Origin: Octopus vulgaris
Taxonomy: Eukaryota
NCBI GenBank assembly: GCA_951406725.2
Contig: OX597836.1
Location: 25,482,001 to 25,546,000 of the forward strand
Reading direction: 5' to 3'
DNA length: 64,000 nucleotides
Numbering within the stretch: the stretch's first letter is position 1; each line of letters opens with the position of its first letter. A program made the translations under genes and the position numbers. The notes under the pieces are model-generated. The model ran no database searches. It was not told the DNA's origin and saw nothing but the letters and a program-made list of their open reading frames with translations. Shown in pieces: positions 26,252-26,745 of this stretch.

Positions 26252-26607
26252 TTTTCGCCTAGGAGTGGCACATGAATCGTGCTTTCTTCTTCTTTATTCA
26301 ACCACGAGCTTCCCCTAAGTCTTGGAAGAAATGTCATGCTCATGGCCGTAACACCCCATCACCACTTTCATTAAATATCGCACGAAAACGTAAATAACCA
26401 AGAATAATGAGATTATTAATAAATCTCTGAACGAGATATAAACAGTAACCGCTCGACAACGTAAAGTGTACTAGCCATCTGAATGTGGCTAGCCACTGGG
26501 GGTGGGGTATTACTGACGCTTTTAGCCCCAGGTGATCAACGTCACCAGCTGGCCTTAGACACAATTTCAGTGCCCTTGCGTTATTTGCAAAGGGAGGTCA
26601 TCCTCCC

Positions 26608-26688
26608 TCGAAAACCTAAGTGATACATACGGACTATAGTTTCAAGGTAATTGCCTCTCGTCAACGCACGGTAAACACCGGTTTTCGA
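26608..26688 (-). ncRNA. Diverged type I hammerhead in the last intron of the ANKDD1A-like gene, sense strand
   Basis: CGUGCG UUGACGA GAGGC-aauu-ACCUU GAAA CUAUAG UC^ CGUAUG, with distal pairing ucgaaaacc/gguuuucga; flank 26480-26607 is homologous to the 352-bp unit. Confidence 0.65.
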
Positions 26689-26745
26689 TATGAGATTATT
26701 TGGGAAGAAATAGTTTCAATAAAACTGATGGTGTTGCATGCTTAC

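What the first reader, a model, noticed from the sequence alone, without database searches (positions are those of the whole stretch)
26480..26700. Covarying hammerhead of the same family in sense orientation in the last intron of the ANKDD1A-like gene
Seen: about 60 nt past the donor at 26746, the pre-mRNA strand reads CGUGCG UUGACGA GAGGC-aauu-ACCUU GAAA CUAUAG UC^CGUAUG. Relative to the 6.3-kb copies the sequence differs while the structure is kept: the stem III palindrome changes CUCGAG to CUAUAG, and stems I and II and the distal helix (ucgaaaacc/gguuuucga) re-pair. The core has a C3U change. Inference: the covariation shows structural selection in the family. If active, it could cut the pre-mRNA between the death-domain exon and the CaaX exon and affect production of the prenylated isoform.
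Basis: partly seen in the sequence, partly recalled or inferred. Interest (0 to 1): 0.7.

Follow-up and report, generated by a model that had tools for sequence, protein, structure and literature searches.

The report
Retrozyme remnant in octopus ANKDD1A intron
A self-cutting-RNA (hammerhead) motif does lie in the last intron of an octopus gene, but it belongs to one truncated copy of a mobile repeat present hundreds of times in this genome, it likely needs a matching partner copy that this gene lacks, and the gene is spliced across it, so it is most likely a harmless passenger.

Summary
The motif is real: a type I hammerhead at 26670-26626(-), predicted cut 26632/26631, in sense in the 2,067-nt last intron of an ANKDD1A-like gene; spliced RNA contigs from three studies join the flanking exons. 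It sits in a 272-bp, 5'-truncated monomer of a ~358-bp non-coding retrozyme, flanked by an 11-bp target-site duplication. The covariation seen against the 6.3-kb copies separates two subfamilies (about 67% identical); it is not a property of this copy. U3 is the subfamily's state (324 exact cores with U3, 6 with C3). This copy's one private change in the ribozyme turns a stem I A-U pair into G-U. Stem III (ACUAUAGU) is a dimer palindrome, and no compatible partner lies in the ~190-kb gene. Best reading: neutral retrozyme debris, rarely or never cutting the pre-mRNA (0.8). Residual interest: two subfamilies spread with a U3-G8 core, and the insertion lies 6 nt behind the stop of a read-through, non-CaaX C-terminus annotated in O. 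bimaculoides. The scan has noted retrozymes, intronic copies and core-pair variants elsewhere in this genome before.

The parts
26418..26689 (-). 272-bp 5'-truncated monomer of a ~358-bp non-LTR retrozyme (subfamily B); lacks about 85 nt of the unit
26690..26700 (-). Upstream copy of the 11-bp target-site duplication AATAATCTCAT; also holds the TAA (26698-26696) that closes the donor read-through frame
26407..26417 (-). Downstream copy of the target-site duplication
26626..26670 (-). Type I hammerhead: stem I 26670-26665 with 26631-26626; core UUGACGA 26664-26658 (U3, G8); stem II 26657-26644 (G10.1-U11.1); GAAA; palindromic stem III ACUAUAGU 26640-26633; C17 26632; predicted cut 26632/26631
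26608..26688 (-). Distal extension of stem I (long helix enclosing the ribozyme), covarying among subfamilies
26669..26669 (-). Private A>G change (0 of 62 aligned paralogues) turning a stem I A-U pair into G-U
26746..26875 (-). Penultimate exon of the ANKDD1A-like gene (second half of the death domain)
24679..26745 (-). Last intron, 2,067 nt, GT..AG
24608..24678 (-). Coding part of the last exon, ending ...CSPMACMIT* (CaaX-like)
6169..6857 (-). Two-unit tandem array of retrozyme subfamily A (352-bp unit; C3 core; stem III ACUCGAGU and, in the 6.7-kb unit, the broken ACUCAAGU), about 18 kb downstream of the gene's stop

Best explanation
The hammerhead is part of a lone, 5'-truncated copy of an abundant non-coding retrozyme repeat that likely was written into this intron by a Penelope-type retrotransposon enzyme and is likely a neutral passenger, removed with the intron and predicted to cut rarely or never. 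Shown: element, TSD, copy number, subfamily structure, splicing across it, no second subfamily-B core in the gene. Inferred: (1) insertion by target-primed reverse transcription from a fixed 3' end; (2) the family's ribozyme works as a dimer through the palindromic stem III, which processes tandem transcripts into monomers or circles; (3) a single copy with U3-G8, G10.1-U11.1 and an extra G-U in stem I is too slow to compete with splicing of a 2-kb intron.
For: Dispersed near-identical copies: 2,479 first-look candidates, the 40 scored at 95-97% for the main copy; 324 exact U3 cores plus 6 with C3. Perfect 11-bp TSD; paralogues share the 3' end near 26415 and many show 9-14-bp or (TA)n duplications, inverted arms and 353-359-bp tandem units. 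No long ORF (<=81 aa in doubled units). Only 3 private and 1 near-private substitutions against 70 paralogues, one of them in stem I. Stem III self-duplex -7.2 kcal/mol, against -1.4/-1.0 with the 6.3/6.7-kb copies and -0.9 with subfamily C. No other CUAUAG stem III in the window or the 160 kb upstream that hold the gene's matched exons; two other decayed sense remnants and one antisense remnant of the family lie in other introns. Spliced join 26746-24678 in 3 of 3 RNA-type runs, contig depth 41-293 against 3-6.5 for unique intron pieces. Literature: monomers with short palindromic helix III cleave poorly (6% and 22% in 1 h for axolotl; PMC7229834; PMC4209133); slow intronic ribozymes do not affect splicing (Fong 2009 as cited in PMC10919898); 42-44% of Xenopus retrozyme copies lie in introns (10.64898/2026.07.22.740005).
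Against: No cleavage assay exists for this sequence. Stem III has two Watson-Crick pairs beyond A15.1-U16.1, and the mussel retrozyme cleaved as a cloned single repeat at about 0.1/min, so some monomer activity is possible. Contigs cannot show RNA ends and drop rare forms. The insertion is present in DNA runs of organisms B, C and D, so it is fixed or common rather than purged. With only 3-4 substitutions the test for local selection has almost no power (P = 0.49 of none in the ribozyme by chance).
Confidence: 0.8

Rival explanations
1. The copy retains real but slow self-cleavage (as a weak monomer or with a retrozyme RNA in trans) and nicks some pre-mRNA or excised intron, with no selected effect on the gene.
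For: All helices can form and G5, A6, G8, A9, G12-A14, A15.1-U16.1 and C17 are intact. Subfamilies B and C both carry U3, are 73-78% identical, and kept compensatory changes between them, which suggests the U3-G8 core still cleaves. Family sequence appears in RNA-type runs.
Against: Predicted monomer fold pairs the core GAC with GUC at 0.97-0.98 (also 0.79-0.88 in subfamily A, so not specific). Trans dimers need high local RNA concentration (recalled). 8 of 9 Xenopus retrozyme dimers tested gave no cleavage.
Confidence: 0.14
2. Co-opted regulator: cleavage 113 nt after the donor destroys unspliced or read-through RNA (or uncouples the last exon) and so sets the balance between the CaaX isoform and a non-CaaX isoform.
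For: Sense orientation close to the donor; three O. bimaculoides RefSeq isoforms end by reading through this donor; the same frame is open here for 17 codons and stops 6 nt before the element; an AATAAA lies at 26298; the Cys at -4 is conserved in molluscs; precedent in CPEB3 and amniote intronic hammerheads (review PMC6155905).
Against: Young insertion (1.1-1.5% from the subfamily majority); no read-through contig in 3 of 3 RNA-type runs; no cis partner; private change weakens stem I; organism D's three differences in 257 nt appear to fall in the element part, not the exon or unique intron (inferred); hundreds of sense intronic hammerheads are expected genome-wide by chance (459-765 if introns are 30-50% of the genome, an assumption).
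Confidence: 0.05
3. The 272 bp are the end (pLTR) of an autonomous Penelope-like element rather than of a stand-alone retrozyme.
For: PLE-type insertion marks; retrozymes are reported to derive from pLTRs.
Against: In 29 paralogous loci nothing outside the ~358-bp unit is shared by most copies and no shared coding body adjoins it; units are head-to-tail; ribozyme has canonical 6-bp/4-bp helices.
Confidence: 0.05

Closest known systems
Metazoan non-LTR retrozymes (Cervera and de la Pena 2020, PMC7229834; mussel 350-390-bp and axolotl 330/350-bp repeats; parts 2-3 of 6 read)
   Same: Non-coding ~350-bp units, GC below 50%, one type I hammerhead per unit, tandem and solo copies, long TSDs, short palindromic helix III
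   Different: U3-G8 core and G10.1-U11.1 in this subfamily; frequent inverted arms; circRNA and cleavage not shown here; this copy is a partial monomer
Solo retrozyme monomers in Xenopus introns (Li, Clavereau, Pollet 2026, 10.64898/2026.07.22.740005; parts 1-3 of 5 read)
   Same: Dispersed monomers, over 40% of copies in introns, PLE link
   Different: Cephalopod host; that study covers no mollusc
Hammerheads of Penelope-like element pLTRs (Cervera and de la Pena 2014, PMC4209133; passages read)
   Same: Type I, dimer-type palindromic helix III, mostly single motifs from truncated insertions; core variation at position 3 known (U3-A8)
   Different: Here the core is U3-G8 (uncompensated), helices are canonical rather than minimal, and no RT/EN ORF is attached
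Conserved intronic ribozymes: amniote RECK/HH9-type hammerheads (review PMC6155905, passages) and the CPEB3 HDV-like ribozyme (PMC10919898, passages)
   Same: Sense ribozyme in a host intron
   Different: Those are single-copy and conserved across classes, and CPEB3 is shown active as a monomer; this one is a young copy among hundreds, inside its whole element with TSD

Membership tests
Type I hammerhead ribozyme | Core C3 U4 G5 A6 N7 G8 A9, G12 A13 A14, A15.1-U16.1, H17 | tested here: inconclusive
   All positions match except C3>U; U3 leaves a wobble in place of the C3-G8 pair described in PMC3088659 and PMC3884650
Type I hammerhead ribozyme | Three helices with covariation | tested here: met
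   96.9% of cells paired, 7 of 20 pairs with two-sided change, score 0.384 against <=0.14 slid; 13 hand-picked rows from three subfamilies, so few independent events
Type I hammerhead ribozyme | Site-specific self-cleavage | not testable with these tools
   No assay; contigs cannot show ends
Type I hammerhead ribozyme | Match to an Rfam hammerhead model | tested here: not met
   No hit at gathering score or at E<=10; the canonical-core 6.3-kb copies were also missed at gathering score, so the models are insensitive to this family
Metazoan non-LTR retrozyme | 150-450-bp non-coding unit with one type I hammerhead, in tandem and dispersed copies | tested here: met
   Units of 353-359 bp, GC 0.43-0.45, longest ATG ORF 45-70 aa in subfamily B; 330 exact cores
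Metazoan non-LTR retrozyme | TSDs longer than 4 bp, no LTR/PBS/PPT | tested here: met
   11-bp TSD here; 9-14-bp duplications at many paralogues; no long terminal repeats seen; PBS/PPT not searched for
Metazoan non-LTR retrozyme | Expression as linear and circular monomer RNA | not testable with these tools
   Family sequence is present in RNA-type contigs but circles and ends cannot be read
Metazoan non-LTR retrozyme | [quoted passage not shown] 2026) | tested here: not met
   This copy is 0.76 of one unit; tandem copies exist elsewhere (L014, L073, L077)
Domesticated intronic ribozyme (RECK/CPEB3 type) | Locus-specific conservation above flanks across distant species | tested here: inconclusive
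   Present in three other coded organisms but young and with a private stem I change; distant octopus orthologous introns were not available
Domesticated intronic ribozyme (RECK/CPEB3 type) | Able to fold and cleave as a single copy in the pre-mRNA | tested here: inconclusive
   Dimer-type stem III, no compatible partner in the gene; prediction only
Autonomous Penelope-like element | RT and GIY-YIG ORF flanked by pLTRs | tested here: not met
   No shared coding body beside the unit in 29 paralogous loci of about 3.2 kb; not searched genome-wide

The most novel reading that the evidence does not exclude
A retrozyme that landed 6 nt behind the stop codon of a read-through, non-prenylated ANKDD1A C-terminus is cut in trans by pairing its palindromic stem III with free retrozyme RNA of the same subfamily, destroying read-through or unspliced RNA and favouring the CaaX isoform: a host isoform switch keyed to the level of a parasitic RNA, working through a natural U3-G8 core.
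Probability: 0.04. Interest if true: 0.75.

Novelty: new member of a known kind. Interest (0 to 1): 0.2.

Why it matters
As a locus it matters little: one of hundreds of copies of a known class. The family is mildly useful: subfamilies with different stem III palindromes (ACUCGAGU, ACUAUAGU, ACCUGGGU, and a decayed ACCCGGGU) give natural covariation for the dimer model, and two related subfamilies spread with an uncompensated U3-G8 pair, which offers a simple test of how much core degeneracy a genomic hammerhead tolerates. Only if this copy were shown to cut its own pre-mRNA would it be a case of recent ribozyme co-option.

Tried and rejected
Rfam scans found no hammerhead. C3U as decay of this copy: rejected, it is the subfamily state. 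Heterodimer with the 6.3-kb array by read-through: rejected, palindromes are incompatible and the array is about 18 kb past the stop. A second subfamily-B copy in the gene: none in the window plus 160 kb upstream; the first coding residues (before about aa 18-44) and any 5' UTR exons were not mapped. RNA ends at 26632: not readable, all served runs are contigs; one X9 contig of a paralogue stops at 26632, but DNA contigs also stop 5-6 nt away, so I give it no weight. Absence of read-through contigs (26690-26745) in three runs is weak, since short tips are dropped. Summed contig depths were not used as copy numbers. Strand bias of the family in introns: not testable without annotation. Orthologous intron of O. 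bimaculoides: no DNA available. Measured rates for U3-G8 hammerheads: not found; searches for C3U and U3-G8/C3-G8 gave none, and Przybilski and Hammann 2007, Lunse et al. [quoted passage not shown] Searches for octopus hammerheads/retrozymes gave no dedicated paper; the giant squid genome paper lists 235 Rfam hammerhead hits. No ANKDD1A prenylation paper surfaced among the 20 listed. Supplements were not read.

Full report
Observation. U3 is at 26664 and C17 at 26632, so the predicted cut is 26632/26631. The stretch is 74-76% identical to the two units of the 352-bp tandem repeat at 6169-6857. The 111-nt region folds better than 199 of 200 shuffles (z = -3.96), owing to the long distal helix; the 59-nt core alone does not (z = -0.04). 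Rfam gave no hammerhead hit. Two points were missed: stem II opens with G10.1-U11.1, and stem III with its closing pair is the 8-nt palindrome ACUAUAGU.

The host gene. Exons in the window match Ank and Death Pfam models. The 62-aa exon at 28431-28246 is identical to O. bimaculoides ANKDD1A, and tblastn places matched exons on the minus strand over about 190 kb. Contigs from 3 of 3 RNA-type runs of three studies join 26746 to 24678 across a 2,067-nt GT..AG intron; the DNA-sized run laid beside them does not. These contigs have depth 41-293, unique intron pieces 3-6.5. The spliced frame ends ...CSPMACMIT*. A Cys four residues from the end is found in 23 of 24 non-octopus sequences retrieved, the exception being a fragment. 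So 'sense, last intron, before a CaaX-like exon' holds; prenylation itself is untested.

The element. A genome search gave 2,479 first-look candidates; the 40 scored carry copies 95-97% identical over about 250 nt. Their match to the window stops at 26689 and about 26415. The window copy is 26689-26418 (272 bp), flanked by a perfect 11-bp duplication AATAATCTCAT. Full units are 353-359 bp, GC 0.43-0.45, with no ORF above 70 aa; the window copy lacks about 85 nt. Among 41 subfamily-B loci many have 9-14-bp or (TA)n duplications, inverted arms and head-to-tail units. No coding body is shared beside the unit in 29 paralogous loci. This is the anatomy of metazoan non-LTR retrozymes (PMC7229834, parts 2-3 read), proposed to be moved by Penelope-like elements (10.64898/2026.07.22.740005, parts 1-3 read). 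The insertion mechanism is inferred from the footprint.

Where the covariation lies. Exact-core counts give 324 copies with U3 and 6 with C3 for the CTATAG stem III (reversed-pattern controls 0). Another 570 cores have other stems III; of the first 100 listed, 91 start with C3 (87 CTCGAG, subfamily A) and 9 are U3 with CCTGGG (subfamily C). Units of B and C are 73-78% identical, A is about 66-67% from B and 58-59% from C. On 13 chosen rows from the three subfamilies, 96.9% of cells pair, 7 of 20 pairs change on both sides, and slid controls fall to 21-50%. Each subfamily has its own self-complementary stem III (ACUCGAGU, ACUAUAGU, ACCUGGGU). It says nothing about this copy.

This copy. Against 70 paralogous hits it has 3 private substitutions (26669, 26579, 26509) and one nearly private (26533; 2 of 70), 1.1-1.5%. 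The one in the ribozyme changes a stem I A-U pair to G-U (stem I -4.6 against -5.0 kcal/mol in paralogues and -6.9 in subfamily A; stem II -1.9 against -4.4). One change of 3-4 in 45 of 272 nt is what chance gives, and the test has little power. DNA contigs of organisms B, C and D run from the exon 39-51 nt into the element, so the insertion is shared with close relatives, as any fixed insertion of that age would be. Organism D has 3 differences in that 257-nt contig and none is listed in 26690-26900, so they probably lie in the element; this is an inference.

Can it cut? Literature read: hammerheads with a short palindromic helix III cleave poorly as monomers and efficiently as tandem dimers (PMC4209133 passages; axolotl monomers 6% and 22% in 1 h; review PMC6765202 passages); against this, a cloned mussel repeat cleaved at about 0.1/min. 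C3-G8 is a core pair whose natural variants are usually compensated to U3-A8 (PMC3088659 passages; PMC3884650 passages); I found no measured rate for U3-G8. Computed stem III duplexes: -7.2 kcal/mol for B with B, -1.4 and -1.0 with the 6.3/6.7-kb copies, -0.9 with C. No second CUAUAG core lies in the window or the 160 kb upstream; the gene instead holds two other decayed sense remnants and one antisense remnant of the family. Slow intronic ribozymes were reported not to affect splicing (Fong 2009, cited in PMC10919898 passages). Polymerase needs well under a minute or two for the remaining 1.95 kb at the mammalian rates quoted there. I therefore infer little or no effect on the pre-mRNA.

What keeps the regulatory idea alive. 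Three O. bimaculoides RefSeq isoforms (X1, X2, X4) end by reading through this very donor (GKHPTLSVLLKRFLPK). The same frame is open here for 17 codons and its TAA (26698-26696) lies in the upstream TSD, 6 nt before the element; an AATAAA follows at 26298, one of four in the intron. If that isoform is real, the ribozyme would sit in its 3' UTR. But it may be an annotation artefact, the tail differs at several residues, and no read-through contig appears in the three RNA-type runs (weak evidence). I put this at about 0.05.

Comparison and verdict. It works like, and by the testable features is, a solo remnant of a metazoan non-LTR retrozyme; it fails the two-unit criterion for an active element and has not met the tests for a domesticated intronic ribozyme. 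Searches found no paper on octopus retrozymes, but the class is described in molluscs, and this scan has many unverified notes on retrozymes, intronic copies and core-pair variants in this genome; none covers this window. Novelty: new member of a known kind. Interest 0.2.

Noticed in passing
window 25937-26160: Inverted pair of minimal Penelope-type hammerheads in the same intron (CUGAUGA at 26023(-), sense, and 26069(+)), with a 4-nt palindromic stem III. They are predicted to be locked in one long hairpin. The family has 2,159 exact-core matches.
   Followed up: partly
window 26745-26696 (-): Donor read-through frame of 17 codons matches the C-terminus annotated for O. bimaculoides ANKDD1A X1, X2 and X4; its stop lies inside the retrozyme's TSD.
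   Followed up: partly
window 6726 (-): The upstream unit of the 6.3-kb tandem has stem III CTCAAG (palindrome broken; -4.7 kcal/mol with its neighbour against -10.7), so that dimer is itself impaired.
   Followed up: partly
L084 9930-9820 (-), L088 6210-5965 (-), L098 1410-1600 (+): Three decayed retrozyme remnants in upstream introns of the same gene; the L084 one shows a fourth stem III palindrome, ACCCGGGU.
   Followed up: partly
L067-L072: Subfamily C: U3 core, stem III ACCUGGGU self-complementary through two G-U pairs; sister to subfamily B.
   Followed up: partly
L004, L007, L019 and the window copy: Several solo copies start within about 0-20 nt upstream of the distal helix, possibly a transcription start or preferred truncation point; the loci were chosen by likeness to this copy, so the sample is biased.
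   Followed up: no
L076 (G000:C1:94320800-94327800): Subfamily-B cores recur at about 1,380-bp spacing, a larger tandem unit that contains the retrozyme.
   Followed up: no
run X9, contig laid on window 26632-26689: A contig from a paralogous copy stops exactly at C17; contigs cannot show RNA ends, so this is only a lead.
   Followed up: no
window 25345-25520 and 25890-26255 (-): A roughly 110-bp sequence at 26255-26170 recurs inverted at about 25345-25450, part of nested inverted repeats in the same intron (seen).
   Followed up: no
window 12143-16979: 4.8-kb minisatellite of 68-bp period, about 70 copies, 96% matches.
   Followed up: no
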